This document shows, in pieces, positions 24,690 through 63,379 of a DNA stretch of 64,000 bases. Source of the stretch: Rhynchobatus australiae. Taxonomy: Eukaryota. The notes beneath the pieces were generated by a model. That model saw only the letters and a program-made list of their open reading frames with translations. It was not told the DNA's origin and made no database searches. Position 1 is the stretch's first letter. Each line of letters starts with the position of its first letter. A program made the translations under genes and the position numbers. The stretch spans positions 17,993,210 through 18,057,209 of the forward strand of contig JAUZTB010000072.1 in the NCBI GenBank assembly GCA_034780895.1. The letters are read 5' to 3'.

Positions 24690-26555
24690 TAACATTTAAA
24701 GGATTAATACATAGTTTGCAAGTGATATATTTTCCTTTTAAAGCAAAAAAAACAGGAAAAGTGGTCCAGCTATGGCTATCAAGAGAAGTTAGAGATAGTG
24801 TTAGATCAAAGGAAAAGGCTTATAATGTTGCCAAAAAAAGAACGGTAAGCCTGAGGATTGAGAGAATTTCAGAATTCAGCAAAGGAGGACTGAGGCATTG
24901 GTAAGGAAAGGGAAGGTAGAACACAGGAGGAGGCCAGCAAGAAACATAAAAGCAGACTGTAGAAGCTTCAACAGATATTTAAAAAGGGAAAGATTAGCTT
25001 AAATTACAGTGGGTCCCCTATAGACTGAGGCAGGAGAAATTATACTGGGGAAAATAAAGAAATGGCAGAGAAATTAAGCAAATATTTTGTGTCTTTCTTC
25101 CTGAAAACAGATTCAGAAATTCCAGGAAATAGTGAACCAGTCTGGAGTAGGTAAAGAACTCAAAGAAATTAACATCAGTTAAAAATTAATGTCAGAGGAG
25201 TTAATGGGCCTGAAGGGAATAAATCCCTCGGATGTATCGTGCAACTGAGAGTTCTGAAGTAGGTGGCTACTGAGAACTGGTTGTCATCTTCCAGTGATCT
25301 ATGGATTACTCAATGGCTTCTNNNNNNNNNNTTTAAGAAAGGACAGAGAGTGAATGTAGGCAGTCAGGGACCAGTTAATCTTACATCTGTAGCAGGGAAA
25401 TTACTGCAATCTATTATTAAAGAAGTGGCACAGGACAGTTAGTCCTGTCATTGAAAGAGAAATCACGTTTGACAAGTCTGTTGGAGTTTTTTGAGTTGTA
25501 ACCGTCAGAACAGATCAGGGTGGATCATTGGACAGACTTTCAGAAAGCCTTGGATGAGGGGTCATACAAGAGATTATTAAACAAAATTAGCATGCCCGTT
25601 ATTGGGGATAACATGCTGTTGTGGATAGAAGATTAGTTAGTGGCCGAAAAAGAGAGAGGAGGAATAAACATGTGTGCCACAGGGATCGGTACTGGGACCT
25701 CAGCTGTCCACAATCTATATCGATGACTTGGGTGAGGGGCTCAAGTGTAAAATATCGAGGTTGGCTGATGAGCTGAGAGCCGGGGTGGATGGTGAGGAGA
25801 ATGCAGAGAGGCTTCCATGGGCAGACAGATGGATGAGGACATGGCAGATGGAAAACAATGTGGAAAAAGATGAGGTCATCCACTTTGGTAGAAAAATACA
25901 GAAAGCTGGAGTGTTTGAAATTGTGAGAAACTGGTGCACAGAGGGAGCCGTGTGTTCTTGTAAACAAGTCATTGAAAGTTAATTAGCAAACAGCCCAGAA
26001 GGTGACTGGTACATAGACTGTTTCTGCAAGAGAACCAGAGTGGAGGGGTCTTGCTCCAGTTATATTGAGCCCTGCAGAGACCACACATTAAATATTATGC
26101 ATTGATGTAGTCTCTCCCTGAAGAAGGAGATACTTGTGATAAAGGCGGTGTAACAAAGTCCTGCTTCCTGGAATGATGGATTTGTTGCGTGAGGAGAGAC
26201 AAAGCAGACAACACCTTCAGTTTAACAGAACGAAAGGTGATCTCAGTGTACAGAAATCATGAGGGGGTTGGCAGGAAGGATGGTGGGTGCCTCGAAGAAG
26301 GTGCCACAGTCTCAAAATAAGGAGTGGGCCATTCAGGACAGAGATGAAGAGGAACATTTTCCCCCAGGGGGCGGCGAATCCTTGGAATTCTTCACCCAAG
26401 GGAGCTGTGGAGTCTCGATCACTGGCTATATTAAAGACAAAGCTAGATTTTAATATACGAAGTGATATGGTGTAAGTGCAGGAAAGTGGCACTGATCAGC
26501 TGTGGTCTCACTGAGTGATGGAGCAGGCACAAGCAGCCGGATGTCCTATTTGTAG
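24690..26555 (+). mobile_element. Degenerate 5'-truncated CR1 LINE (RT domain to 3' tail)
   Basis: KVVQLWLSREVRDSVRSKEKAYNVAK, PQGSVLGPQLSTIYIDDL...ISRLADE and GPFRTEMKRNIFPQ...WNSSP; many stops and frameshifts. Confidence 0.9.
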
Positions 26556-29360: not shown

Positions 29361-29429
29361 ATGCATTGTGGATGTGATGTCAGAGCTTCTCTGTGTGACT
29401 AACCGCTTGTGGTGTGTGGTTGGACCCAG

Positions 29430-29629
29430 ATGGAGGGAGCACCGTCCACAGACCGCAGCCTCTGCCGCCCTCGTCCATGCATCAGAGCGGCCTGGCAGCT
29501 GCAGCCGAGAGTGCCTCCTATGGCCTAGCATCCAATCGGCACGGCTTCTCCAGCTACCCTGACAGCTTCATGAACCCGACAGGACCCAACAACTCCATGA
29601 ACCAGGTCAGCAATGGACTCTCTCCACAG
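29430..29629 (+). CDS. pax7: Pax7 exon 7 equivalent
   Basis: Acceptor ggacccag|, donor CAG|gtcagc; 200 nt, phase 1 to 0. Encodes (D)[66 protein letters not shown]. Confidence 0.97.
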
Positions 29630-30311
29630 GTCAGCCTTCACACAATCGCATTCTCCAACATCACTCGGTACAGCTGTGTCTCCCCACTCCCATCCCAACT
29701 CCCCTTCCCACCCACCCCACCTGGGATAAGACTCAGCCCATGTCTATAAAACAGAGCCCTCAATCGCATTGGCACAGCTATTAGAGCTACACTTCACTAC
29801 TCCCTCACAGATAGGTCATCCCAATGGTGCAGCCACTCAGATGTTCAAGTGATCACTTCAGAAACTCAGCAGTGTGACTGGAGTCCATCAGATTAAAGCC
29901 TGGGGTCCGGAATGCAGAGCAATCCCCAGGGTGAAGTGTTGGACAAACCAGGAGGTGATAGTTAGCATGAGTCATCTTGGTTTTATAGCAGTGGATCGTT
30001 AGAGGAAGGAAAAGTAAAAGGGAGGGGAGAGTGAGAGTAGGGATGACCCAGATAGTTGGTTTGGGATAATCATGAGATGGAAAAGAATTTGCAGACGGAG
30101 GTTTCAGACTTGCTTGGCACTTCAGAAGGACAAGAAGGAAAGCTTGACAGGGAATACAACTCACTGAGGAGAAGGGGAGGCTGGAGGGGATTAGACACAG
30201 TGCTGGCGGCCTCCACAGATGTGGGAGTGAGATAGGGGTTAAAGGGGCCCCCTGATATAAAGGAAGAGGACAGAAGTTAGAAGGGATCCCAAATATAGAG
30301 AAGGAAGATAC

Positions 30312-30493
30312 TTGATCCTCAGTGAGAGTCGGCACCTTCAGGGGAGGGGGCTGATCCCCAGTGAGAGTTGGCACTTTCAGGGGAGGGGGCTGATCCCCAG
30401 TGAGAGTCGGCACCTCCAGGGGAGGGGGCTGATCCCCAGTGAGAGTCGGCACCTCCAGGGGAGGGGGCTGATCCCCAGTGAGAGTCGGCACCT
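30312..30493 (+). repeat. 39-bp minisatellite array 1 (AGTGAGAGTCGGCACCT(T/C)CAGGGGAGGGGGCTGATCCCC)
   Basis: About 4.5 near-identical head-to-tail units running into a 100-N gap. Confidence 0.97.
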
Positions 30494-33059: not shown

Positions 33060-33335
33060 CTGTTCAGGACAAAAAGCAAAAATCCAATTAGCCATCATCT
33101 CTCAGACATGCGCGACTTGTGTCAGTGCAGAAGGGCAAAGGATCGCGGGGCACCGAATGAACCCACTCTTCCCTTCACACAAGGGGAGCCCGACTGTTTC
33201 ACTGTGGGGGTATCACAGGTAAAGTCCACCTGTGGGGCATTATGTGGGTGGGAGGTGGAGGAAGAGTCACTGAAGGGTGACTGGGGATGTTTTATTTGCC
33301 AGGTGCTGCCTCCCTCCTGACCGAGNNNNNNNNNN

Positions 33336-33509
33336 ATGTTGGTTGTGCAGCGCTGGGGTTTTCTGTCGGACTGGGAAATGACAGGAATGGTTTCCCGGCT
33401 GGGTGACCACACCGGAAACTCCACTGGTCACTCTCGGGTAGGCATCATGTTGTACGGATGGGCTTGTGCAGACACAATTCCAAGAGCATTGTGAGCCGGA
33501 ACCAAGTTC
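33336..33509 (+). repeat. Inverted repeat arm A (pairs with 34434-34609)
   Basis: About 80% identical over ~175 nt by hand alignment, with two 1-nt gaps. Confidence 0.92.
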
Positions 33510-34433: not shown

Positions 34434-34609
34434 GAACCTGATTCCTGCTAACCACGCTCTCGGAATTGTGTCTGCAGAAGCCCATCCACACAACATGATT
34501 CCTGCCAGGAAGTGACCAGTGCTATTTCCGGAATGGTACAACCCAGCCCAGAAACCGTTCCCGTCACTGCCCAGACCTACAGAAAACCCCAGCACTGCAC
34601 AACCCACGT
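34434..34609 (-). repeat. Inverted repeat arm B (pairs with 33336-33509)
   Basis: Reverse complement GGTTGTGCAGTGCTGGGGTTTTCTGT...ATCATGTTGT..GGATGGGCTT.TGCAGACACAATTCC is shared with arm A. Confidence 0.92.
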
Positions 34610-35751: not shown

Positions 35752-35927
35752 AGTGAGGGTCGGCACCTAAAGGGGAGGGGGCTGATCCCCAGTGAGAGTC
35801 GGCACCTTCAGGGGAGGGGGCTGATCCCCAGTGAGAGTCGGCACCTTCAGGGGAGGGGGCTGATCCCCAGTGAGAGTCGGCACCTCCAGGGGAGGGGGCT
35901 GATCCCCAGTGAGAGTAGGCACCTTCA
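35752..35927 (+). repeat. 39-bp minisatellite array 2
   Basis: About 4.5 units, same unit and orientation as 30312-30493. Confidence 0.97.
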
Positions 35928-38930: not shown

Positions 38931-41229
38931 CCTCAGGATTGGGATTAGCTCTGAACCACCCCCCCCACCCCCACCCCCGTGGCTGAAGGGCAACAGGTAT
39001 TGGAAATGAACCAAAACTAGAATTGGGACATGGAGGTTGGCAGTCAAGGCCTTTGGGAGGTAGGCTGAGTATTGGAGACTCGGTCTGTGACAGTCACTAT
39101 GAGGTCTACAGGACCTGGATCAAGGTCTGCAGGAACCATGACTCTGGGAGTCTGTGGGGTTCACATTGTTCTCAACACTTCCAGTTATCACCACTTGCAT
39201 CCAACAGTAGGTGACATTAATGCTCCTGAATGGAAACTCCTTATTGGACCAGGGATTCACCATCGGGAGCCAAGTGGCCACATTTCATTTATTTTATTAG
39301 ATAAGTAGGAAAAGAGAAATGTGTGAATCTTTGTAATTAGAATGTTGGATGATTAGTTGGAGGGAGACGGGCTGCATTTGATGTTTAGTGAGCTGCTATC
39401 AACCCGGTGAGTGTGGAGCGAGGGAATGAGAGAGACGTTTGCTCTCCTTTGATCCACCGCCCCAGGCACACTTCACAACCACTTCCAGTCTGAGTGAGTG
39501 GTTTTCAGTTATTCCTGGCAAGTGTCTGTTGGAGATAAGAACAGAACCCCAGCATTGTACACAACCCATCACACCAGCAGCTGGCCAATCTGTGGAATTA
39601 CAGTAAAATCCATGTCGGGAACAGAGAAGTCCGTATAGGTGCTTCAGAATACTGTAAACACTTCAAGTCAAGTATTTAAAATGTTCTGAAGCACCTGTAC
39701 TGAAGGGTCATTGTGGGATGGAATAAGATGGTTCATCAATTCTTGCCTCTGTCTCTCCTGCTTTTCCTTTGTAAATCTGCCTCTCTTTCTGCCTGGAAGG
39801 TTCAAATTCTGATTACTGTTGTCCCCTACAAGCTCTGCTCTATTGGTACAAACATTCCCTGCATTTAACACTTCCATTTAATTAACACAGTGAGAGGTTT
39901 TGTCAAAGTAAATGCCGTTATAAGAAAACAGCAGTCAGTGGAGCTTCCCCTGTTCATCCCTCAGAATTTCTCAAATCCTGCTTAATGCTCTTTCTCCTTC
40001 TTCCTCTCTCTCTTTCTCTTTCTCTCTTCTTCAACCTCCCTTCTTCCTTCTTTCTTATCTTCCTTCATTCATTCCTGTCTCCCATCATCTCCCTCACTAC
40101 CTCCTTCACTATCTGTCTCTTTCCCTCTCCCTCATTCTTCTTAATCCTCCTTTCTCACCTTCCCTCTCATCCAATCTCCCTCACTTCATCCCTCTCCTCA
40201 TTTCTCTTCTTCCCCTCCAATTGAGCTCCTGCTATCAAGCACTCCCAGAGCCATCGTGTATCTCTCCAAGCACCAAACCCTCTGACACATCATCACCCCT
40301 GTTGTACGAGAAGCATTAGATGTGGTGACAAACAGACAGATATCGAAAGCCTACTCAAGACGGAAAGGTCAATTGGCCGCATGTGCTTTCCGTTAGTTAC
40401 AAATACCAGACTGACAGGGGCGGGCCCTGTAATTAATCCCTGCTCTCCTCCGAGCCCTGGCTCCTTCCTTTTCTCACCCTGTGACTGCAGATGACTCAGT
40501 GAGCCTAAGTGTTAAATTCGCCATTGTTATTCACTATGTTCGGAGGGGCTGTAAGATTATTTGCTCTTTCACAAATCAGGCAAGATCACAAGGAGCACAG
40601 GTGGATGCTGCAATGTCTGTCAGATTCCCTGATTCCAAAAGCATGGATTACTGTAAAATGCCCCACAGATGGAAGTCCTTTGGCCCATCGGACCTTTGCC
40701 AGCTCTTTGCAAACCTATCTGTTCTTCCACTCCTACACTCTCCCCATGCAGTCAAATGCTTCTTTCCCCTTTAAGTATTTATCAAACTCCTTTTGGAAAA
40801 AGCATTGAGTCTCTTCTTCCACTCTTTCAGGCCATGTTTAGTGAGGGCTCAGCAGAAGCAATAAACCAAATCATGTATGAGAGTGACCTTTAGCTCCTAT
40901 CGTACTTTGTAAAAGTAGCTCATTATACACGAGTTGCAAGACACATTCAGTGTAAACATGTGCCAGTGTGAATGGATGTGTGGATGAACTAGTGAGTGGG
41001 AAGATGGAAGATCCTGACTCATACGTTTGTAGTGTATGCATATCTGCATACATTCAGTACTGGGTTATTTTTATATATTTGTGTAATTACGTTTAGGTAC
41101 TCTGAATGAATACGCATATGTTTTATGGAAGTGGGTTTCTATTTTGATGGCTTGCATGCATGTGAATATAAGTGGGCAGGAGTGTTTGAATCTGTGGGGT
41201 CAAGATGTCTGTGTGTGCACATACATCAG

Positions 41230-42575: not shown

Positions 42576-42685
42576 AAGGTGCCGACCCTCACTGGGGATC
42601 AGCCCCCTCCCCTGAAGGTGCCGACCCTCTCTGGGGATCAGCCCCCTCCCCTGAAGTTGCCGACTCTCACTGGGAATCAGTCCCC
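42576..42685 (-). repeat. 39-bp minisatellite array 3 (inverted)
   Basis: About 2.8 units of AAGGTGCCGACCCTCACTGGGGATCAGCCCCCTCCCCTG, the reverse complement of the unit in arrays 1 and 2. Confidence 0.95.
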
Positions 42686-48064: not shown

Positions 48065-48590
48065 AGTAGGGGAGTGGAGTGTCAGTTGGTGCGACCTGAG
48101 GCACCCAGTGGGAGGAGGGGGGTGGGAGTGGGTGCTGTGGGAGAGGGGGGTAGGAGTGGCTGCCCAGTGGGGGAGGGGGTGGGAGTGGGTGCCCAGTGGG
48201 AGTAGGGGATGGGAATGGGTGCCCAGTGGGAGAGGGGTGTGGGAGTGTCTGCCCTGTGGGAGATGGGGTGGGAGTGGGTGTTGTGGGAGAGGGGGTGGGA
48301 GCGTCAGCCCAGTTGGAAACGGGTGTGGGAGTGGCTGCCCAGTGGGAGAGGGGTGTGGGAGTGGCTGCCCAGTGGGAGAGGGGGTGGGAGTGGGTGGTGT
48401 GGGAGAGGGGGTGGGCGCGTCAGCCCAGTTGGAGACGGGTGTGGGAGTGGCTGCCCNNNNNNNNNNNNNNNNNNNNNNNNNNNNNNNNNNNNNNNNNNNN
48501 NNNNNNNNNNNNNNNNNNNNNNNNNNNNNNNNNNNNNNNNNNNNNNNNNNNNNNNNGGGAGTGGATGCCCAGTCACCCGGTGGGGAGTAG
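48065..48590. repeat. G-rich ~30-bp minisatellite (CCCAGTGGGAGAGGGGTGTGGGAGTGGCTG)
   Basis: Many tandem units with GGG tracts; N gap inside. Confidence 0.92.
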
Positions 48591-48599
48591 TGTGTGACA

Positions 48600-48890
48600 T
48601 TGTGCGCTAACTCCGTGTGATGTGCCAAAGGGTTAAACAATGTGGTAAGAAATCGGCTTCCATCAGCAAACTGAAATATGAAAGTGAAGGGATTAAATTA
48701 CGTGAAATTAGCTCCATTTGTCAGTCACTCAGACCGTCCTCTAAAGCTGCTACACGGCTTCTCCGTTAATTGCCATCAGGCCTGGTCACAGATTCCATTG
48801 TAATCTGATGTGCAAATTAGCTCCCTGCGAATTGAATTCATTTGTTGTCACATTTAGACCCAGTTTCCAATTGTTTCTTCCCCTTTAAAT
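48600..48890. promoter_or_regulatory. Candidate intronic enhancer / conserved non-coding element
   Basis: Non-repetitive and CpG-retaining; Sox-type AACAATG (48636) and CATTGT, several TAAT cores, AAATTAGCTCC twice (48705, 48814). Conservation not tested. Confidence 0.45.
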
Positions 48891-49899
48891 ACAGCCCCAA
48901 CCCCCACCTCTCTCTTTGAGATATTTGCCCGAAGCAGTCAGTACTAAAAGGAAAAAGAGACTTTTAAACGGCTGGATCTGGTTTTGCGACCAGCGTCCTT
49001 TTCCCTCCGCTCTTTCTGCTTCACTCACACCCTCTTTCCGCACTCGATACAGATTACAGGGGACTGATTGATGGTGTGGAGGGCAGGCATCTGAAGCCTG
49101 GACTATCAGTGCTGCAAACAGCGTCGCCCCAGGCAGCACTGACTGCCCTTGTCGCTCTTTGTACTTTGACTTTCTTTCACGTTTCATTGAAACCACAGAG
49201 GAGACCCGAAAGATCTCGAGAAACCTCGTTTGGATCCAATAAGTCACTCGGCGTAGTCTATTACTTGTGCCCGCAGGGGGTTACCGCGCACTCCTGATGC
49301 AGAGCGTGGAGAGAAAGAGGGAAACACAGAGAGAACTTTAAACCTTAATCGAAATCATTTGCTAACAGTTCCCAATCCTTGCCACCGCGTAGCACTCGGG
49401 AATTACCCCAGAATCCTCCGAATACTAAAACAATTATTGCCGAGATAGAGAGAAAGCGGATGTTAATAACACTCGGGGTAACGTTCCCATTGTATTCCAG
49501 ACCAGTGATAAAGCCTGTTGTTTNNNNNNNNNNNNNNNNNNNNNNNNNNNNNNNNNNNNNNNNNNNNNNNNNNNNNNNNNNCCTCAGCCCATCCTCCGTT
49601 AGCTTAACCGTCAATTCAGAGCCTTGTGGGGTTGTATTCAGGAAATAAATACTGAATTCAGTTCAGAAAACCATCCTGCCTGTCAGCCAGGAAAGTATCA
49701 CAAACACGTCACGGATCACTGGATAATGATGTGGACCAGAAACACTGACTGACTCTTTCCCTTTCTAACCTAGTTGAACCGAGACCAATTGAACCAACTT
49801 TTTACAGCTTCTCAATTATGTCATCTTATGGTTACCTTTCAGTAACGATTGGAATTGCATGAATTCTCACCAAATTATTAGTTGATGGCAAGGACATAG

Positions 49900-52800
49900 A
49901 GAGGGCAGGAACTAAGATTCTATTGTCAGATTTTCTGGAGGCTAGGGAGGGAGTTGAGAAGCAGGAAGGTGGTAATCTCCAGGTTGCGACCAGTGACACC
50001 AGAAGTAGGGAGGTAAGGAGGATCAATGTGCGGCGCAGTGCCATTGGGACAGGTTCTGGGGCAGGAGGCACCTACTCAAGAGGAAGAGGCACCCAACACA
50101 ACTGGGCCACTGTCCTTGTGTGGAGATTTACCAGTGTGGTTTGGAGGGTTTAATCTAAATTGGCAAGGGGATGGGTGGTAGCATTTAGAAGTATTAAGAG
50201 GAATAAGGAGCATGAAGTTGGGAGTGTTGGATAGTTCCAGAGAAGCAAGTAGTACCTTGTTCAATAGGAGCAGACTAAGAAGGACCTAAAGGAACACAAG
50301 GACAGGTTTAGAATGCGTGCATGTAACAGGGCAAGTGCAGGAGATAAGGTCGGTGAGCTGTGTGGGAATATGATGTAATGGCCCTAACAAAAATGTAACT
50401 CAAAAGCGTGAAGACTTGGTGCTTANNNNNNNNNNNNNCAAAGTGTTCAGAAGAGTTGGGGAAGAAAATAAGACGTTGCAGTTAAGGAGGCACTGATTAA
50501 GGAATTAATTGTAGCATTGGAAACAGAGGATGTAATTGAGCAAGCAAGGACAAAATCTCTTTGGATGGTTGAGAAGCAGAAGGGATATGTTTAAGTCACT
50601 GTGAATATTCTATAGGCCACCAAACAGTGAGAGAAAGTCAGAAGATCAAACTTGCAGAGAAAATATCGAGATAAGGAAAAACTATAGTGTGGAGATGTTG
50701 GGGGATTTTAATTGTCTAAATATCAATCAGGACAATGTTAGAAAAAGGAAAGTAGGGAGGAAATTCCAAAATGTGTTCAGGAGAACTTCATTAACCAGTA
50801 TGTACTTGGTCCACATTGGAAGAGGTCATTGCCAGATCTGGGGCTGGGGTCAAAGACAGTTCAAGCACCAGTGGGAGAATACCTGGGGAGGTGTTGAGAT
50901 TAGTGATGGAGAAGGGCAAGGCCAATCTACAGTAGAACTTGGGAGAGGGCAGACTTTCGTGTGGCAGGCTGTCCAGGTAGGGTATAATGGAATCAAAGAT
51001 TAACAGGAAAAACTTTAGAGGAACAAGCTGTGACCTGTAAGGAGGAGATATTGGCTGGGTGCATTCCCACAGGTTGCAAAGGCAGAGGAATCAAGGCCAG
51101 AAATGATGAGAGAGAAAGCAACTACTATGAAACAAGAAAAGAGATTGTACAAATCATAATATGTGAATTCCAAGTGAGAACCAGGCTAAATACATGGAGA
51201 TGTGTAGGGGAGTAAAGAGAGACATAACACCAGCAGAGAGAGAATATAGAGAGTGGCAGGTAACAAAAAATGAAGCAAAGAATCTGCTGTTGGCATGTAA
51301 ATGATGGGTAGCTAGTAAGAAGCAGGATGGGACTTATCAGGGACAAAGAAAGGACAAACATGCTTAGGTAACATGAGATGAGATGTGGGGTGGGGTCCTT
51401 ATATTTGATGTGAAGAGACAAATGGAAAGTAGGTCTAGATGAGACAACAAACAAATTGAATTAGCAGGGAACTAATTTACCCATTGGATTACAATGGAAT
51501 CTGTTTCCAGCCTGACGGTAATTAAGGGAGCACCTTGCATCCAAAACATTCAGCTGCCTGAGAAGCTGATCTGAGTGACCGACAAATGAGCTGCTTTCTG
51601 ATGTTTTGTCTCAAGGTTTACTGAGGAAGAAAATACTGGCAGAACATCAGTGGAAACAGAGATGGTAAAAGTATAGGTGATGCAGAGGAAGTATTGGAAA
51701 GGCTAGCTGTCCTCAGAGTGGATAAGCACCTCAGAGATGCCATGCACCTCAGGTTCCTAAGGGAAGTGAGGGTGCAGATATTGGAAACTTCCGCAATCTT
51801 CTAATCCTTTTTTTAGATACAGGAGATACAGGTGAAGTGCCAGAAGATTGGAAAGTAGCAAACGTGACAATTTTGCTCAAGGAAGGGTGCAAGGACATTC
51901 CTAGAAACTGCAGGCCAGTCAGTTTAACATCTGTGGTGGGGAAGGTTTTAGAAACAGTAATCAGGGAAGAAAGGCACTTGGGGAGATTTGAGTTAATTAA
52001 GAAGCGCTACGATGAATTGTTTGGCGAACCTAATTTGATTGTTGGTAAGGAGTACCAGGGAAGGTTGATGAAGGAAATGCGGTGGATATTGCCTGCATGG
52101 ATTTTAAGAAAAGACTTGACGAAATAGCACATGAAAGGCTGATTAACAGAACTGAGGCTCATTCAATAGAAAAATCACTGTCAACTTGGACAGAAGATAG
52201 TAAGTGTGCTAAGTGGTTGTTTTTAAACTTTAGAATAGTGGTGTTCTCCAAGGCTCAGTGTTAGGACACTGCTTTTTTGATATATCTAAGTTAATTGGAT
52301 ATTGAAATACAAATTAAAATTTGCAGATACACAGTGGTAAGCAGTGAAGATGATACTAATCAACTCCAATAGTTGCCAGCTGGGTTAACAGAATGAGCCA
52401 ACATGTGGTAAGTAGAACTTAATATGGAGAAGTGTGAAATGATGCATGTTGGCAGGAATACTTGGTGGCAATGTGGAGTTAAAGTCGATGAAGGAACAGG
52501 GGCATCTAGAGTTTCATGGGCATCGATCTTTGAAAGTGTCAATAGATACTGAGAGAAGGCTTTGTGAAGTATGTAGGATCTTGGGATCTATCTATTGAGC
52601 ATGAATGCTGCATGTTTATAAAACTTTGGATTGGACACCACTCAAGTATTACATCCATTTCTGGTCAGCAAACTTTAGGGAGGATCTGAAGCCCTTTGAG
52701 ACAGTGAAAAGGAAATTTACTTGAATGGTTCCAGGGATCANNNNNNNNNNNNNNNNNNNNNNNNNNNNNNNNNNNNNNNNNNNNNNNNNAGGTTGAGGAG

Positions 52801-53100
52801 AGATTTGATAGGAGAGTGAATAATTATTGACAGTCTCAGAGAAGGCAGATAAAGAAAAGTTATTCCCGTTAGCTAATGGTACAAGAAGTGGGCAAGAGAT
52901 ATGGCAAGATGTGAGGAAGGACCTCATTTATGCAACAAGTGGTAATGATCTGGAACTCAGTGCCTACAAAGTTGGTAGAAATTGGAGAGGTACTTGCAGA
53001 ACTGCAGGATACAGTGGGAGAATGGAAATGGTGGGTTTGCTTTATGGAGATCCAGTATGGATAAATGGCTCCTTCTGTTCCATCTTGGTTCTGTGACTAT
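49900..53100 (+). mobile_element. Long decayed CR1 LINE (end of ORF1, endonuclease, RT, 3' tail)
   Basis: YRPPNS, GDFN, PEDWKVANVTILLKEG...NCRPVSLTSVVGKVLE, MDFKK, QGSVLG and KFAD remnants in order; interrupted at about 51406-51598. Confidence 0.9.
51406..51598 (-). repeat. Inverted copy of 48704-48886 inserted in the CR1
   Basis: 51412-51504 aligns ungapped to the reverse complement of 48788-48880 with 15 mismatches in 93 nt; similarity continues with gaps. Confidence 0.93.
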
Positions 53101-53469: not shown

Positions 53470-56400
53470 TTCTGGTCTTGTCCACGATGTTTGTGTGCAG
53501 CATGGATCAGCTGGGCTGAATGGTCTGTTTCTGTACAATATGTAATTGGTAATAGAATCATGGAGCTATCTTGGCACAGAAGGAGCTCGTAAACCCACTG
53601 AGACTAAGCTGGTTGTCTGTGGAGCAATCCAGTCAGTTCCAATATCCCACTGTATCATTGTAGCCCTGTAAGCTTATTTCCCTTGTGTACCTATCCAATT
53701 TCCTTCTGAAATAAATTATTGATCAACTCCACTTTCACCATCCTTGTAGGAAACATTTTCCCTGTGTCTCCCTATCAAACTTTTTCACAATCTCAATGAC
53801 GTCTATCAGGTCAGCCTGTAGTCATCACTGTTGTAGAACAAAGTGCCTCAACTTGTTCAATTTTTCCTCTTAGTTCTGCTATCATTCTAGTAATTTTCTT
53901 TCTCGCCTTTGAATTTTTGAACCATAGAAATTTACATCACAGATTGTTCAGCTGTTGTGTCTGTGTTGGCCAAAGGAAATCCATCTAGTCTCACCTTCCA
54001 GCTTCTGGTCAACAGTGTTATATTTTTAAATGGGATGAGAGTTTCTGCCTCAACCATCGCTTCTAGTTACTGGGTTCCAGAATACAACCACACCCTGGGT
54101 GAAAATATTTCTCTTTATCACCCCTTACCAATGATTTAAAATCTATGTCCACACCTCCCATTTATTGTTACGAAATATAAGGAAAGGGATGAAAAATATT
54201 GCCTTTCTAAATGATTATAACCGCTATCCATTAGAAATGTTTCCAAGAATTTTTCCACTAACTAATTAGATGGACTGGCCCATCATTTCTATCTATTCTT
54301 TTTTGAACCATTATATCACATGGGCCTCCTCCTCTGGCACCATGGCATTAACCAGGGAGGATTGGAAACTAATGGTCAGAACTTCCATTATTTTCTACCT
54401 TGCTTCTTTTAACGGGTGAAATAAATTTTATCTGGGCCTGGTAGTTTATCTACAAAATACTAAATGTCTTAATATTTTCTGTCCTCATTTGTTTATCCCA
54501 TGGTTCTTTTTAGTTACAATGTCTACATCTTCCTACTGTTTCATAAGCACTGTGATCGGATCTTGCCTCACCATGGAAAAGTTGTCTGTTTGGTCTCTAA
54601 TAGGTTCTACTTTCTCCCTAATTATCTTTAGTTTCCTTTTCCAAATATACTTTTAAAACATCTTAGGGTTATCCTTCATTTTATTTGCCAATATTTTTAG
54701 TCACTTTCTTTCCTTACATTTTATAGTTTACTTTACAATTACTTTACACTTTCTATACACCTCCAAGCATTCCACAGTATTGAACTCTCTATCCTGAATT
54801 TAACTCACCCTACCCTGTATGGTCTTTGACAACCAGGGGTTCCATATTTCAGAAGCCCACACTATTCCTTTGCTGCAATATTTTTGCTCTGAAAGGTCAC
54901 TATTTCCTGCTTGAATGTATCCTCCTGCTTGAATATAGATTTAACTTTGCCGATTTTTTTCCAATCCAGTTTTGTTGAATCACATCTCAACCAGGCAAAA
55001 TTGGTCTCCCTTTCTAATTAAGAATTTTTACTCCTGGTGTCTCTTTGTACTTTCCATAACAACGATATATCTAACTGAATATATATCTACCTGAATCATA
55101 ATCATGAGTCTCAAAATGCTGTCTTACCAATGCAACTTATGGCTGTATCCAAAACTGAGTCCAAATTGCCCTCTCCATGTATTTGGTCTGTCTGGGTCTG
55201 TACTGGTTGCACTTTAAGAATTTTGCTCCCTTTACACCTCTTACAATAATTCCATCCCGGTTAATATTAGGTTAGTCAAAATCTCAGAACTGTTGTTGCC
55301 CTAATATAATTGCATTTCTCAGCAGTTCCTTTATATATTTGCTCTTCCATTACCGTCTGACTGGGGACCCACAGCATTCTCCCAGGTGTATGCAAGTGCT
55401 CAGCTGAATATTTCCAGCATTTTCTGTGCTTTTACTTTAGGTTTCCAGCATCCGCACTTTTTTTGCTTTTGTACTCCGTTTCGATCTGTCAGTTTAACCT
55501 ATATCCTCATTTAGCAGTCCTTCTCGCATGTTATCTTTCCCCACAACCATAATTGTTCTTTTAAGCAATATTACAACCACCTGTTTTTTTATCATTGTCG
55601 CTATCAGGTTGAAAGGTTGCTATCAATCATTCCCCTCAAGACAACATCTACTGTCCATTTCCAGTTTTTCTTCTCTTCTTTCTGAATCTGCAGTCACATT
55701 CTCAGCTCCCTCCCAAATTCATTTAAATCCTCCTTCAATGCACAAGCATAAACTTGCTGTTGAATTGGTTCCAACCCCCTGTGGAGGTGCAACCATTCCA
55801 GCTTGTACAAGTCAGCTTGCTAGAACAGGCTCCAGTGCTGAAGGGATCGGCAACCTTCCCTCCTGCACAACATGCATTCATCTGCACTACCTTCCTACTT
55901 CTGTTCCCACTGGTGCATGTCACCAGCAGTCATCCGGAGATTACTACCTCTGATGTCCTACTTTTATTCTCTTTTCTAGATTCCTAAAATCTTCCCAAGG
56001 GACCTCATCCCATTTTGTGCCTATGCCTTGGAACTCTTATACACTATGAGCCCCGCACTCATTGTTAAAGTTGTAGAATCATACAACACAGAAACAAGCC
56101 ATTTGGCCCATCGTATCCATGCCAACCATCAAGTACCCATCTATGCTAATCCCACTTACCCACACTTGGTCCGGAGCCAGCTGTGTCTGGGTGATTCAAG
56201 TGCATTTTAAAATGTGAAAGTACTTGCCTTCACCACCCACTCAGGCAATGTATAGCAAAATCGAACTCCCCTCTGGGTGAAGAAATTCTTCCTGCGATCC
56301 CTGGAAACCTCTCACCTCTTACCCTAAAACTATGCCCTCTCATTTCAGGCACCTCTGCTTTGGGGAAACATTTTCGACTATCTACCCTATCTATGCCCCT

Positions 56401-57000: not shown

Positions 57001-58449
57001 TAATCAGCTCGTTTTTTGTGTTGGTGGCACTTTAGACAAGTTTCATCCACTTTCCTTGACAATCACCCTGCCTTATCTCCACCCTTTCCCATTCTTACTG
57101 TGTTTTATTTATTTTGTTAATTAAAATTTATAGATTTACTCAATTCAGTTTACTAGTTTTAGTATTTGATCAAATTTGAATAAGGTGAATTAAATTTAGT
57201 ACTTATCTATGATTTATGTGACCTCATTTTGTGATTTCCTTTTATAATGCTTCTAATTCCGTGTTGAAATACAGAGAGCAGATCTGTCTGGAGTACTCAG
57301 TGTGGTCTGACCAGGGTTTTACACATTTATCCACTCTGTCCCAATAGAGATGCACCTTGTTCTTTGTTTCCTTTTGTTTTCAAGATGTTATGAACTTGTT
57401 TTGGCACTGTTAATGAGTGTGTATCTGTGTCATCCTCAACTGCATTTGGACTCTTTCTGTTGAAAGAGCATTACATCTAATTATTCTTCCTATCAAAGTG
57501 TATTACCTTATCCTTAATTATCATGAAGTTAATTTGTGCACTTTTTAATTACATGCCCATTTGACAAGTTTAGTTGTTTGCTGTATTTTATCACTGCCCT
57601 CCTCTGGATTAATTATACCTCCCAATTCGATGCCATCTGTGGATCATTGATGTAAATTGTGAACATTATGGAATGCCAGTCTGAGTACCCACTTGAACAC
57701 CAGTCTCGGTTTCTATTTAGCATCCACTTGCCAACTGTTTGAATTCTTAGTCTATTTCCCAACCTTTCTTTCTTCTGGAGAGTTGTGGAGGCGAGATCAT
57801 TGGGGGTGTTTAAAGAGGAACTAGCTACGCTTTGAAGGATCAGGGAACTGAGGGATATGGGGAACTGGCACAGAGCAGGAAGTGAGGCCTGGGGAAGATC
57901 AGCCTTGAACATACTGAATGGCTCAGGCTTGAGGGGCCGAGTGGCTCATTCCTGCTCCTGTTTTAGTCACAGAGTCATACAGAGCTTCAGCCTAACCAAC
58001 CGAGTTGCCTTCCATTTACCTGCATTTGGCCCACATCCCTCTGAACTTTCCTCTCCATGTACCTGTCCAAATGATTTTTAAACATTTTCTTATTCTTTTA
58101 TGTCCTTCTATTTTCTGGCTTTGATCGTGATCCTACAACGTGGTATACACTAAACCTTATTGAAGCCTCTTTGAAAATCCAGACACATTAGATCCACAGC
58201 ACTTCCATTATTTGTTCTTTCAGTTGCTGCATCAAAATATTCAATAAGGTTAATGAACAATGTTGACTGTTATTTGCTGTTTCAGTTTCTCGATGTTTTC
58301 TTGTGATAAACTACCACCCCTCCCACAACTGCTGTTAAGCAGTTGGGCAGGAATGTTCCATCAGTTGTATTTTAAGTTGTGAAAGCTTGTGGAGAACTGA
58401 TTAAGGTTATGCTCATGCCTCACAGACTTACAATGACTTGTTCTTTCAA

Positions 58450-60440: not shown

Positions 60441-62153
60441 AACTTTATCTAAAAACTTTATTAGTACAGCTCGGTAACAGGCCCTTCCGGCCCAACGAGC
60501 CCACCCTAGCTCTACCTCTCCCTCTTTATNNNNNNNNNNNNNNNNNNNNNNNNNNNNNNNNNNNNNNNNNNNNNNNNNNNNNNNNNNNNNNNNNNNNNNN
60601 NNNNNNNNNNNNNNNNNNNNNNNNNNNNNNNNNNNNNNNNNNNNNNNNNNNNNNNNNNNNNNNNNNNNNNNNNNNNNNNNNNNNNNNNNNNNNNNNNNNN
60701 NNNNNNNNNNNNNNNNNNNNNNNNNNNNNNNNNNNNNNNNNNNNNNNNNNNNNNACTTTTTTCCCTCAAAGAATGACTATCTCACAGGGAAAGTGTGAGA
60801 TGCCCTGAGGGTACTTTGTGTATCTTTCAGTAAGACGTTGTGTTTATCCTTACCTCTTGGATTTATCTCATACACCATCCTCTCCAACCCACGGAAGAGC
60901 CCAGTGATCCAGCCTGGAAAAACTTCTCAGAGCAGAGCCTTGATCAGGGAGCAAACCGTCTCCATCCACCAACAGTAATCACTGCAGTCTGTTTGTGATT
61001 TCAGAGGAGTCCTGTCAGTCTGGGTGATTGACAGCTAACCAACTCAGAGTTCCCACTGCCCTCTGCTCCCCCCACCCACCCAGTACTGATCGGATAAAAC
61101 TTTGCAGATGTTGCACACTGTTTGATTTCTACTCAGGAACCATCATCCTTGCTTTGCACATTCACATCTGGAAAGGGAGGGGAACAAACTGTGGCCAGAA
61201 GGTTTTCTTTAAATTCCCTGACCAGGTTGGTCTGTGTTCAATGGGATCATTAACTTGTACTTTGGTGTAAAACTGGTAGGGAGCTCGTGTTTTAGTCTTT
61301 GGGTTTGCATTTTACTCCTTGTGTATGATCTGCATGTTAACTGTCGTTAGTCGTCTGATCACCATCCCCATCCTCTATCCCACCTCTTCCATTCCTATTC
61401 CCCATCACCATTCCTTCTATCCCCATTTCCACATATCTGAACTCCTACCCCCACCCTGCCATCCCAAACCTCCCAATCCTAGCCCCCATTTCTATCACCC
61501 CATCCCATCAATCCGCTTCCTAATCCACCTTTCCTACCCAATTCCCCTGTTGCCACCTCATCCCCATTTCCCCTATCCCACATTCCCCACCCATCCCATT
61601 ATCCCACCCACAGGCCCTTCCCACCCCAACCCTTATGCACTCAACCTGCCATTCCTGTACATTCACCATCAAACCGGATCCTCTTCTCACCCAAGTNNNN
61701 NNNNNNNNNNNNNNNNNNNNNNNNNNNNNNNNNNNNNNNNNNNNNNNNNCCGTGTTGCCTTCACAGGCAGACCACCAACTCATTGCTGGGGTTGGGGCCA
61801 ATAACAACATGAAACACTGGGTTCTAGCCCTCGCTTTTCCCTGTCCCCTCCTCCTCAACCCTCTGCACCATCTCCAACCCCTTTCCTCCAACTTCCTCCC
61901 TCTTTTTCCCTTTCTTCTAATTCTCTGATTAATCCCTCCTTGCTGAAGCTCCCTTAATCCCTTCCCCAACCCCTCCTACCCCTCTCCTCTCCAATCACCA
62001 TCCCTCCTCTCCCCTTATACTTCCCTTTCCCCTCTCTCTCCAACACCCCCCCCCAACCCCTGGCCCAGATTGGAAGCCAAGGTCTCTTTCTTTCCATTAA
62101 CCATTCGTCTCCCGTTCTCTCTCGCCCTGCCACTCTTGGTCTCATTTCCACAG

Positions 62154-62400
62154 GTGATGAGCATCCTGAGTAACCCCGGAGCGGTCTCCACCCAGCCGCA
62201 GCATGACTTCTCCATCTCCCCCCTGCACGGGAGCCTGGACACCTCAAACCCACTGTCCGCCAGCTGCAGCCAGCGGTCCGACTCCATCAAGGCCGTGGAG
62301 AGCCTGCCCACCTCTCAGTCCTACTGCACGCCCGCCTACAGCACATCTGGATACAGCATGGACACTGTGCCTGGCTACCAGTACGCTCAGTACGGACAGA
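62154..62400 (+). CDS. pax7: Pax7 exon 8 equivalent (transactivation domain)
   Basis: Long pyrimidine tract with tttccacag|, donor AGA|gtaagc; 247 nt, phase 0 to 1. Encodes [82 protein letters not shown]. Confidence 0.97.
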
Positions 62401-63379
62401 GTAAGCATTGCCTGCTGAAACCACCTCCTGGGGGGGGGGGGAAGGGCACCAACATGGGTGGGTGGGAATGGTGGCCCATCTTTGTATCACAAATGGTCGA
62501 GAGTCTCATAGACCCCAAGTCTATGCAGAGAGAGTCTATCTGAGCCAATAACGAGCAGTAGGGATACTGGCATCACTGAGGATGGAATGTTCCAAAATAT
62601 CCATCTCTGATCACTGCCCTGCTGGAGAGGGGGTGTGTGCGCACTGTGAGCATATTGAGCTGCTCAGCACTGATGCACTGGGCTAATGGAGGGGTGTGTT
62701 CTGTTGGGTATGTTGGGACCAAAGGGTCCTCAGATCAAAGGCACCAGCCACAATGAGTGAGAACATTAAGTAGGGCCCAACCTCCAATTCCTTTCCTGTC
62801 TCCCCACTCTATGCCACCAACTTCTGCCGACCAAATTAATTTGGAATATCAGAAATATCTCAGAATCGAAGATTTTGCAAGAGCAAGTTCAGCATCCTGA
62901 TCATGGACTAAAAATTGTCTCAGGCTGATGGAGCACCCGGATTTAGCAGCCAATGAACTAAATCCTGGTACACTGGGGGTTGTATTCTGGCAGAGGTATA
63001 ACGAAGGGTATACAGTGTTACACTGAGCAATGTATTACATCAGGGNNNNNNNNNNNNNNNNNNNNNNNNNNNNNNNNNNNNNNNNNNNNNNNNNNNNNNN
63101 NNNNNNNNNNNNNNNNNNNNNNNNNNNNNNNNNNNNNNNNNNNNNATTACATCAGGGAATTACATTTAGTGATGTGCTAAATCAGTGCATTAAAGGAAAA
63201 GGTGGGTTAGGTCAGGTATCTCAAGAAGCGGTTGGTTTCATCAGTGTTACCATGATGTGTTACATCAGAGTTGCAGTGAGGGATATTTGACAGACAGTTA
63301 CTCTGAGGTGTGTTATAATGTTACAGTGAGAGGTGTGTCATGTTTGACATTACAGTGAGGTGCCAGTTACACCAGGCCC

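What the first reader, a model, noticed from the sequence alone, without database searches (positions are those of the whole stretch)
48704..51598. Enhancer-like block duplicated in inverted orientation into a CR1 LINE 2.5 kb away
Seen: 51412-51504 matches the reverse complement of 48788-48880 without gaps (15 mismatches in 93, about 84%), including an exact GATTACAATGGAATCTGT; the match extends to about 190 nt with gaps. The copy splits the CR1 ORF2 between the G.IRDKE...VL and FTEEE remnants, and a G-rich stretch (GAGGTGGGGG versus GATGTGGGG) is similar at one junction. Inference: a templated, microhomology-mediated insertion that postdates the LINE. It may have produced a shadow enhancer keeping the Sox/homeobox core, and/or a long-range hairpin in the Pax7 pre-mRNA.
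Basis: partly seen in the sequence, partly recalled or inferred. Interest (0 to 1): 0.75.

Follow-up and report, generated by a model that had tools for sequence, protein, structure and literature searches.

The report
Repair-copied Pax7 intron fragment inside LINE
A 200-base piece of an enhancer-like stretch in a Pax7 intron was copied backwards into a dead retrotransposon 2.5 kb away, most likely by DNA break repair; this is a known, common kind of accident, and the copy shows no sign of having been kept for a function.

Summary
48788-48880 matches the reverse complement of 51412-51504 at 78 of 93 bases, and the gapped match runs 48704-48880 against 51412-51598. The right arm interrupts a near-full-length, decayed CR1 ORF2 whose halves are colinear across about 200 extra bases, so it is the copy. 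The left arm sits in a CpG-rich, homeobox/Sox-motif-dense patch of a large Pax7 intron. Size, distance, interrupted host element, one-sided homology (P about 0.001-0.006) and no poly(A) tail fit the repair-mediated duplications of Pace et al. 2009 (PMC2671141): 824 in human, mean 162 bp, all within 5 kb. The functional claims find no support. The exact 18-mer is expected by chance (P=0.44), mismatches are spread evenly, and motifs are not significantly spared (P=0.35). Arm divergence (K2P 0.235) is about half to all of the CR1's own decay (about 0.2-0.45). Other inverted pairs in the intron form equally stable duplexes. Genome-wide copy number and conservation of the donor could not be tested. 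Verdict: a probably neutral new member of a known class.

The parts
48704..48880 (+). Donor arm (A), core; homology may extend to 48891 or 48912
   Evidence: no terminal inverted repeat, no flanking direct repeat, no convincing Pol III B box
48557..49523 (.). CpG-rich, motif-dense patch containing the donor; candidate intronic regulatory region
   Evidence: CpG o/e 0.71 vs 0.275 for the window; 300-nt window at 48600 holds 13 Sox/homeodomain/TALE consensus hits, reached by 0.5% of 1055 windows, mean 3.0 (motifs recalled)
51412..51598 (-). Acceptor arm (B), inverted copy of A with a 12-nt insertion and two 1-nt gaps
   Evidence: 140 of 175 aligned columns identical, K2P 0.235, 95% bootstrap 0.16-0.33
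51380..51411 (+). Left junction zone: G-rich stretch resembling both the donor flank 48881-48912 (inverted) and the CR1 coding pattern; ends in the first copy of a 6-nt direct repeat (51406-51411)
   Evidence: Anchored extension matched by 0-0.6% of 961 CR1 positions; the segment 51382-51400 is 5-7 edits from the reference CR1 peptides and 6 from the donor flank, so its origin is unresolved
51599..51604 (+). Right junction: blunt end of homology, second copy of the 6-nt direct repeat (possible target-site duplication); CR1 frame resumes toward FTEEE
   Evidence: Extension score 0; chance of such a repeat is 0.03% at exact limits, 2.1% within 3 nt, 5.1% within 5 nt
50305..51401 (+). CR1 ORF2 relic, 5' half (endonuclease and linker, to the GLIRDK...VL remnant)
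   Evidence: Frameshift-aware alignment to CR1 ORF2 proteins; weak Exo_endo_phos_2 match, E 0.061
51599..53029 (+). CR1 ORF2 relic, 3' half (reverse transcriptase and C-terminus)
   Evidence: the whole relic is 36-38% identical to the best references, with 15-16 stops and 18-21 frameshifts
29429..29629 (+). Pax7-type exon upstream of the intron (approximate limits, read by hand from the ORF list)
   Evidence: Pfam PF12360 Pax7, E 9.6e-20; ORF 29399-29749
62154..62402 (+). Pax7-type exon downstream of the intron (approximate limits, read by hand)
   Evidence: ORF 61947-62543; no Pfam match; likeness to Pax7 rather than Pax3 is recalled, not tested

Best explanation
A repair-mediated duplication, now a mostly neutral relic. 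A CR1 LINE inserted in the large Pax7 intron. Later a germline break fell in its ORF2 linker, at the G-rich 'GEVL|NEYF' coding stretch. The left broken 3' end paired imperfectly with a C-rich stretch 2.5 kb upstream on the other strand (48881-48912), copied about 190-200 nt backwards to 48704, let go and was joined to the right end without homology, leaving a few extra or duplicated bases (synthesis-dependent strand annealing or an equivalent template switch). The copy then decayed with the methylated CR1 around it. Shown: duplication, inverted orientation, polarity (B interrupts a colinear CR1), one-sided homology, even spread of changes. Inferred: the repair pathway, which end invaded, neutrality of B, and that A is part of an enhancer.
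For: Colinear CR1 halves around a gap of about 200 nt. Homology at the left junction only. No poly(A/T) run of 5 or more at either junction (read). No third copy in the window, and no terminal repeats or Pol III B box in B. Size 187-219 nt and distance 2467 nt lie inside the published ranges: mean 162, max 619 bp; 753 of 1136 human candidates under 3 kb apart; 6 of 39 inspected proximal cases also had a target-site duplication (PMC2671141). Mismatch placement is indistinguishable from random; motifs are not significantly spared; all 4 donor CpGs are changed in B (read from the alignment). Arm K2P 0.235, against CR1 decay of at least about 0.2 and plausibly 0.28-0.45: the two arms together changed at roughly half to all of the neutral rate even if the copy is as old as the CR1.
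Against: Genome-wide copy number is untested, and the published class requires one other copy only. The CR1 clock is rough: it uses simulated decay of other CR1 families under assumed indel and CpG rates, and stop counts saturate above about 0.2. It leaves room for mild constraint or a later insertion. The motif test has low power and its trend leans toward retention (17% vs 24% changed); both CATTGT/ATTTGT-type sites in the 5' part and 3 of 4 TAAT/ATTA cores are unchanged, and B's 300-nt window still ranks in the top 1.8% for motif density. A perfect 6-nt flanking repeat is as well explained by a staggered cut or a mobile-element insertion. B has 2 CpGs that A lacks. A 58-N gap (49524-49581) lies between the arms, so orientation and distance rest on the scaffold.
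Confidence: 0.7

Rival explanations
1. Both arms are independent copies of a short dispersed repeat (old SINE or MITE); B inserted into the CR1 with a 6-nt target-site duplication.
For: Perfect 6-nt direct repeat at the exact limits of the core homology; repeat-rich window; most TE interruptions in the human screen were nested transposons (PMC2671141).
Against: No third copy in 59 kb. For a randomly spread family, the chance of a neighbour within 3 kb and none in the other 53 kb is at most 0.039. Terminal inverted matches 4-5 of 15, no flanking repeat around A, no B box in B; no Rfam match at gathering threshold. Homology runs on into A's flank at one side.
Confidence: 0.12
2. Same origin, but B was kept as a working shadow enhancer of Pax7 under mild constraint.
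For: The central Sox-type CATTGT and neighbouring TAAT cores are unchanged, and B stays motif-dense. Arm divergence may be only half of the CR1 decay. Duplication signatures are reported in 33.9% of mouse shadow-enhancer sets (PMC13345019, passages).
Against: Exact run P=0.44 and no clustering at four window sizes. Motif retention P=0.35; both TALE-type sites and all octamer-like sites are changed. B is CpG-depleted like the CR1. Only part of the motif-dense patch was copied.
Confidence: 0.08
3. Reverse-transcriptase capture: either the CR1 enzyme switched template onto local DNA or an antisense RNA during this element's own integration and switched back, or an intron-derived RNA fragment was retroposed into the CR1 later.
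For: Arm divergence can be as large as the CR1's whole decay, which allows a single event; the 6-nt flanking repeat.
Against: No poly(A/T) tail. In the human set 0 of 39 proximal cases had a tail, against 17 of 29 distant ones (PMC2671141). Returning to nearly the same CR1 position needs two switches. Retroposition has no known preference for landing 2.5 kb from its source (own knowledge).
Confidence: 0.07
4. The pair is kept as a long-range RNA duplex in Pax7 pre-mRNA (editing or splicing control).
For: Predicted duplex -219.5 kcal/mol, 170 pairs, longest uninterrupted run 23.
Against: Three other pairs in the intron are as stable or more so (-238.3, -241.6, -232.6). The antisense strand pairs better (-236.5). 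Only 7 of 19 transitions keep G-U on the transcribed strand. The arms are 19 kb and 10.5 kb from the nearest recognised exons.
Confidence: 0.03

Closest known systems
Repair-mediated duplications (RDs), Pace, Sen, Batzer and Feschotte 2009, PMC2671141 (read: parts 1-5 of 8 of the text and the methods section on identification; supplements not seen)
   Same: Short insert interrupting a TE whose halves stay colinear; donor within 5 kb; size in range; microhomology with or without filler, deletion or target-site duplication; no poly(A). Opposite orientation occurs (ACSBG2 case). 82 of 824 human donors held a conserved element. Bulk divergence was in line with the neutral rate.
   Different: Older (80% identity; most human conserved-element cases were over 90%). 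Probably a cartilaginous fish, a group not among the species surveyed ('shark' and 'CR1' have 0 occurrences in the paper). The homology zone is about 25-30 nt and imperfect, against 2-9 nt microhomologies. Single-copy status untested.
Short-range template switches, four-point model (Walker et al. 2021, PMC7954356; passages only)
   Same: Produces a reverse-complement copy of nearby sequence with return to the original track.
   Different: Defined there within about 100 nt of the mutation cluster; here the template is 2.5 kb away and the copy about 200 nt.
Shadow enhancers born by local duplication (PMC13345019, preprint; passages only)
   Same: Sequence-similar pair near one developmental gene.
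   Different: Those sets are defined by enhancer activity of both members; here no activity data exist and the sequence tests show no significant constraint on the copy.
Pax7 intron 7 enhancer in mouse myoblasts (PMC6547497; passages) and PAX7-linked conserved elements (3 in Table S1 of PMC526512; one row seen)
   Same: Regulatory and conserved elements are known in or near Pax7, including the intron that corresponds to this one by exon order.
   Different: No sequence link to arm A could be made; whether A is one of them is unknown.

Membership tests
Repair-mediated duplication (Pace 2009) | Insert of at least 50 bp interrupts one TE; both parts same family and orientation | tested here: met
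   Both halves align on the + strand to single CR1 ORF2 proteins across a 176-204 nt gap in 6 of 9 references
Repair-mediated duplication (Pace 2009) | End of first TE part within 30 bp of start of second on the consensus | tested here: met
   Protein proxy, no DNA consensus: no reference residue skipped at the gap. Hand count gives 203 nt net excess against 187-219 nt of donor homology
Repair-mediated duplication (Pace 2009) | Donor matches at least 80% of the insert at 50% identity or more, lies 50 bp to 5 kb away | tested here: met
   187 of about 203 nt, 80% identity over aligned columns; 2467 nt apart
Repair-mediated duplication (Pace 2009) | Insert found at only one other place in the genome, reciprocal best hit | not testable with these tools
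   Only the 64-kb window was searchable: no third copy there
Repair-mediated duplication (Pace 2009) | Break-repair marks at junctions (microhomology, filler, small deletion) and no poly(A/T) tail | tested here: met
   Left-junction homology P about 0.001-0.006, 6-nt repeat; no A/T run of 5 or more at the junctions. Exact base-level origin of 51380-51411 unresolved
Repair-mediated duplication (Pace 2009) | Empty orthologous site in a related species | not testable with these tools
   No vertebrate genome collection available
Dispersed SINE or MITE | Terminal inverted repeats or Pol III A and B boxes | tested here: not met
   4-5 of 15 terminal matches; no B box in B, two one-mismatch hits near A on the minus strand only (consensus recalled); no Rfam hit
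Dispersed SINE or MITE | Many genomic copies | not testable with these tools
   None beyond two in the window
Shadow enhancer | Binding sites preserved beyond background in the copy | tested here: inconclusive
   13 of 76 vs 24 of 101 positions changed, P=0.35; no clustering; low power
Shadow enhancer | Overlapping enhancer activity of both arms on the same gene | not testable with these tools
   Needs chromatin or reporter data
Conserved noncoding element (donor) | Sequence conserved in distant vertebrates | not testable with these tools
   The shared 18-mer in either orientation gave 0 hits in full texts and in the supplements of PMC3261376 (9 files) and PMC2781166 (1 file); exact-match searches, weak evidence
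Selected long-range RNA duplex | Changes that preserve pairing; stability above other local inverted repeats | tested here: not met
   7 of 19 transitions keep G-U; three other pairs equal or stronger

The most novel reading that the evidence does not exclude
Arm A is the core of a deeply conserved Pax7 neural or myogenic enhancer, and its inverted repair copy inside the CR1 became a working lineage-specific shadow enhancer that kept the Sox and homeodomain sites while losing the TALE and octamer-like sites. That would be a dated, polarised case of enhancer birth by break repair at a key developmental gene, with a second candidate pair in the same intron.
Probability: 0.08. Interest if true: 0.6.

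Novelty: new member of a known kind. Interest (0 to 1): 0.22.

Why it matters
As it most likely stands, it matters little: hundreds of such copies are known in vertebrate genomes. Its modest value is that the host LINE fixes which arm is the copy and bounds its age, so the pair is a built-in control for how fast an enhancer-like sequence decays once freed from constraint. It would also extend the class to a lineage that the founding survey did not cover. If the copy proved active, it would be a clean example of a redundant developmental enhancer made by DNA repair, which Pace et al. proposed as a possibility.

Tried and rejected
Assembly duplication or haplotype artefact: rejected, since 20% divergence with indels is far beyond allelic difference and the CR1 runs through both junctions without an N gap. 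Arms as terminal repeats of one 2.9-kb DNA transposon: rejected, because the CR1's 5' half lies between the arms and its 3' half outside, and the outer flanks share no repeat. Structured RNA in the donor: fold z-score 0.31; Rfam 0 matches. Coding origin: three ORFs over or beside the arms gave no meaningful Pfam match. A DNA-level model of the empty site from other CR1 copies in the window failed: the copies near 25 kb and 54 kb are other families or damaged at the site. A 59-residue query next to the junction found no protein relatives among 63 candidates. Eight distant CR1 references misplaced or missed the gap and were replaced by closer ones. For one search I used 34 of 152 proteins (400 residues or longer). 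Stop-codon counts alone saturate as a clock. Literature searches for this element or for a shark case of the class showed none among the papers listed; none of the 15 papers listed contains the phrase 'repair-mediated duplication'. PMC3789833 (passages) gave nothing on Pax7 intron elements, and PMC3616699 (passages) concerns an element downstream of Pax7. The bacterial, phage and plasmid collections were not used as they cannot hold orthologs. Two .doc supplements of PMC526512 could not be read, and bioRxiv supplements are closed; either could list Pax7 conserved elements.
Full report
Setting. The window holds the 3' part of a Pax3/7-type gene on the + strand: a homeodomain split over exons near 9453-9590 and 28282 onward, an exon with the Pfam Pax7 domain near 29429-29629 (E 9.6e-20; ORFs), and a further exon near 62154-62402. 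Exon limits were read by hand. That the gene is Pax7 rather than Pax3 rests on the Pfam name and on my recollection of the two proteins' C-termini. The finding lies in the intron of about 32 kb between the last two of these exons, which corresponds to intron 7 by mammalian numbering (inference). The closest CR1 references are 57-77% identical to a protein labelled Scyliorhinus torazame, so a cartilaginous fish is likely; this was not tested further.

The observation. The ungapped match is as stated: 15 mismatches in 93. The gapped core is 48704-48880 against 51412-51598, with 140 matches, 35 mismatches (19 transitions, 16 transversions) and 14 gap columns; K2P 0.235, bootstrap 0.16-0.33. It scores 141, where 60 shuffles reach at most 39 against the whole window, and no third copy scores above 26. 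Self-BLAST extends the pair to 48912 and 51380 (E 7e-28).

Which arm is the copy. A near-full-length CR1 ORF2 relic spans 50305-53029 on the + strand. A frameshift-aware alignment that allows one long gap at a flat cost was run with 9 references. Four placed a single 200-204 nt gap at 51379-51584 without skipping a reference residue, two placed a 176 nt gap at 51348-51523, one split it in three, and two aligned properly only on the right. Counting by hand between the DK codons at 51342-51347 and the F of FTEEE at 51617-51619 gives 275 nt where the reference needs 72, a net excess of 203 nt. So B was inserted into an existing or integrating CR1. A, in contrast, lies in a CpG-rich patch (o/e 0.71 over 48557-49523, window 0.275, CR1 halves 0.08 and 0.21, B 0.24). 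The motif-dense stretch begins about 100 nt before the copied part, and its 300-nt window is in the top 0.5% of 1055 for recalled Sox, homeodomain and TALE consensus words. This fits an unmethylated regulatory region but does not prove one.

Junctions. On the left, similarity to A's inverted flank continues for about 32 nt at lower identity; 0-0.6% of 961 other CR1 positions extend as well under two scoring schemes and two anchors. The same stretch also reads as the CR1 'GEVL' linker. It is 5-7 edits from codings of nine reference peptides and 6 edits from A's flank, so it may be CR1 sequence that happened to resemble the donor and primed the copying, or decayed donor sequence that replaced up to about 20 nt of CR1. 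On the right, homology stops at once (score 0). A perfect 6-nt direct repeat sits at 51406-51411 and 51599-51604, the exact limits of the core; chance is 0.03% at exact limits and 2-5% allowing 3-5 nt of slack. There is no A or T run of five at either junction.

Known class. Pace et al. 2009 (PMC2671141; I read parts 1-5 of 8 and the identification methods) found such events by exactly this signature: TEs interrupted by a sequence with one other copy. Of 1136 human candidates, 824 had the donor within 5 kb and 753 within 3 kb; mean size was 162 bp and the maximum 619 bp. All 39 proximal cases inspected had repair marks and no poly(A); 6 of 39 also had a target-site duplication. One exon copy was in opposite orientation, 82 donors held a conserved element, bulk divergence matched the neutral rate, and zebrafish had 80 and chicken 6 events. 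They attribute the class to synthesis-dependent strand annealing. The present case meets every criterion that I could test; single-copy status and an empty orthologous site could not be tested.

Is the copy functional? Among 100000 random placements of the 35 mismatches, 44% give an exact run of 18 or more, and window minima, maxima and variance at four window sizes are all unremarkable. With motif words fixed in advance, 13 of 76 positions inside motifs changed against 24 of 101 outside (P=0.35). In favour of function, the central CATTGT and 3 of 4 TAAT/ATTA cores survive and B's window is still in the top 1.8% for motif density; against it, both TGTCA sites and all octamer-like sites are altered. 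For age, the relic shows 0.019-0.024 stops per codon and 37-39% identity to the best references. Simulated decay reproduces that identity at nominal distance 0.25 when the source family is 58% identical to the reference (K2P runs about 1.1 times nominal), at K2P about 0.33 for sources 65% or 73% identical, and above 0.45 if source and reference were the same; distance 0.1 gives too few stops, 0.011-0.015. The simulation assumes indel and CpG rates and uses 4-6 replicates per point, so it is rough. Since the insert cannot be older than the CR1, the two arms together changed at about half to all of the neutral rate or faster. Strong constraint on both arms is thus unlikely; mild constraint, or a later insertion with neither arm constrained, is not excluded.

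Hairpin. The arms can pair (-219.5 kcal/mol, longest run 23), but the pair at 33338/34434 gives -238.3 over a shorter distance, two minisatellite pairs give -241.6 and -232.6, the antisense strand of A/B pairs better (-236.5), and only 7 of 19 transitions keep G-U on the transcribed strand. Two further pairs tested were weaker (-58.7 and -105.4). Nothing singles this duplex out.

Dispersed repeat. B has no terminal inverted repeats and no Pol III B box, A has no flanking repeat, Rfam finds nothing, and the geometry has probability at most 0.039 for a randomly spread family. The 6-nt repeat and the lack of a genome-wide search keep this rival at about 0.12.

Limits. No vertebrate genome could be searched, so conservation of A, copy number and the empty site are open. 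A 58-N gap lies between the arms. Exact-match searches for the shared 18-mer found 0 papers in about 8.1 million PMC and 0.36 million bioRxiv texts and nothing in 10 supplementary files of two conserved-element papers; this is weak evidence, as alignments are mostly figures. A myoblast enhancer is reported in mouse Pax7 intron 7 (PMC6547497, passages), but I could not link it to A.

Verdict. The shadow-enhancer and hairpin ideas are unsupported by the sequence tests available. New member of a known kind; interest 0.22.

Noticed in passing
window 33338-33509 and 34434-34607: A second inverted pair in the same intron, 82% identical over 172 columns, 924 nt apart, with no third copy in the window (best score 33) and no meaningful Pfam match in six ORFs between the arms. 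The left arm abuts a 10-N gap, and by eye similarity resumes beyond it near 33270-33292. It may be a second repair duplication or the terminal repeats of a 1.3-kb element.
   Followed up: partly
window 30313-30493, 35752-35927 (+) and 42576-42685 (-): The same 39-nt minisatellite unit occurs at three separate places, 92-96% identical, one inverted; probably carried by a young repeat. These give the strongest predicted duplexes per base in the intron.
   Followed up: partly
window 57250-57800: A second block as dense in homeodomain and Sox consensus words as the donor region (up to 14 per 300 nt), but CpG-poor (o/e 0.2); another candidate intronic element.
   Followed up: no
window 4000-10000: Raised CpG o/e (0.47-0.74 per kb) around the first homeobox exon, suggesting an intragenic unmethylated domain.
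   Followed up: no
window 24692-26487 (+), about 54200-55350 (-), and short 3' fragments near 1172, 4350, 10441, 17992, 26805, 46162, 47642, 53917, 56418, 58251: Two more long decayed CR1 relics and many 3'-end fragments; the two long ones are about as decayed as the host of the insert (34-37% identity).
   Followed up: partly
window 39630-39703: A 74-nt imperfect palindrome (78%), predicted hairpin -34.2 kcal/mol.
   Followed up: no
window 48104-48456: A G-rich 30-nt minisatellite, about 12 copies, ends at the 100-N gap just upstream of the donor patch; its G-runs could form quadruplexes (inference).
   Followed up: no
protein P0156: An intact CR1 ORF2 62% identical to a shark-labelled one carries a bacterial species name in NCBI; probably host DNA in a bacterial assembly.
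   Followed up: no
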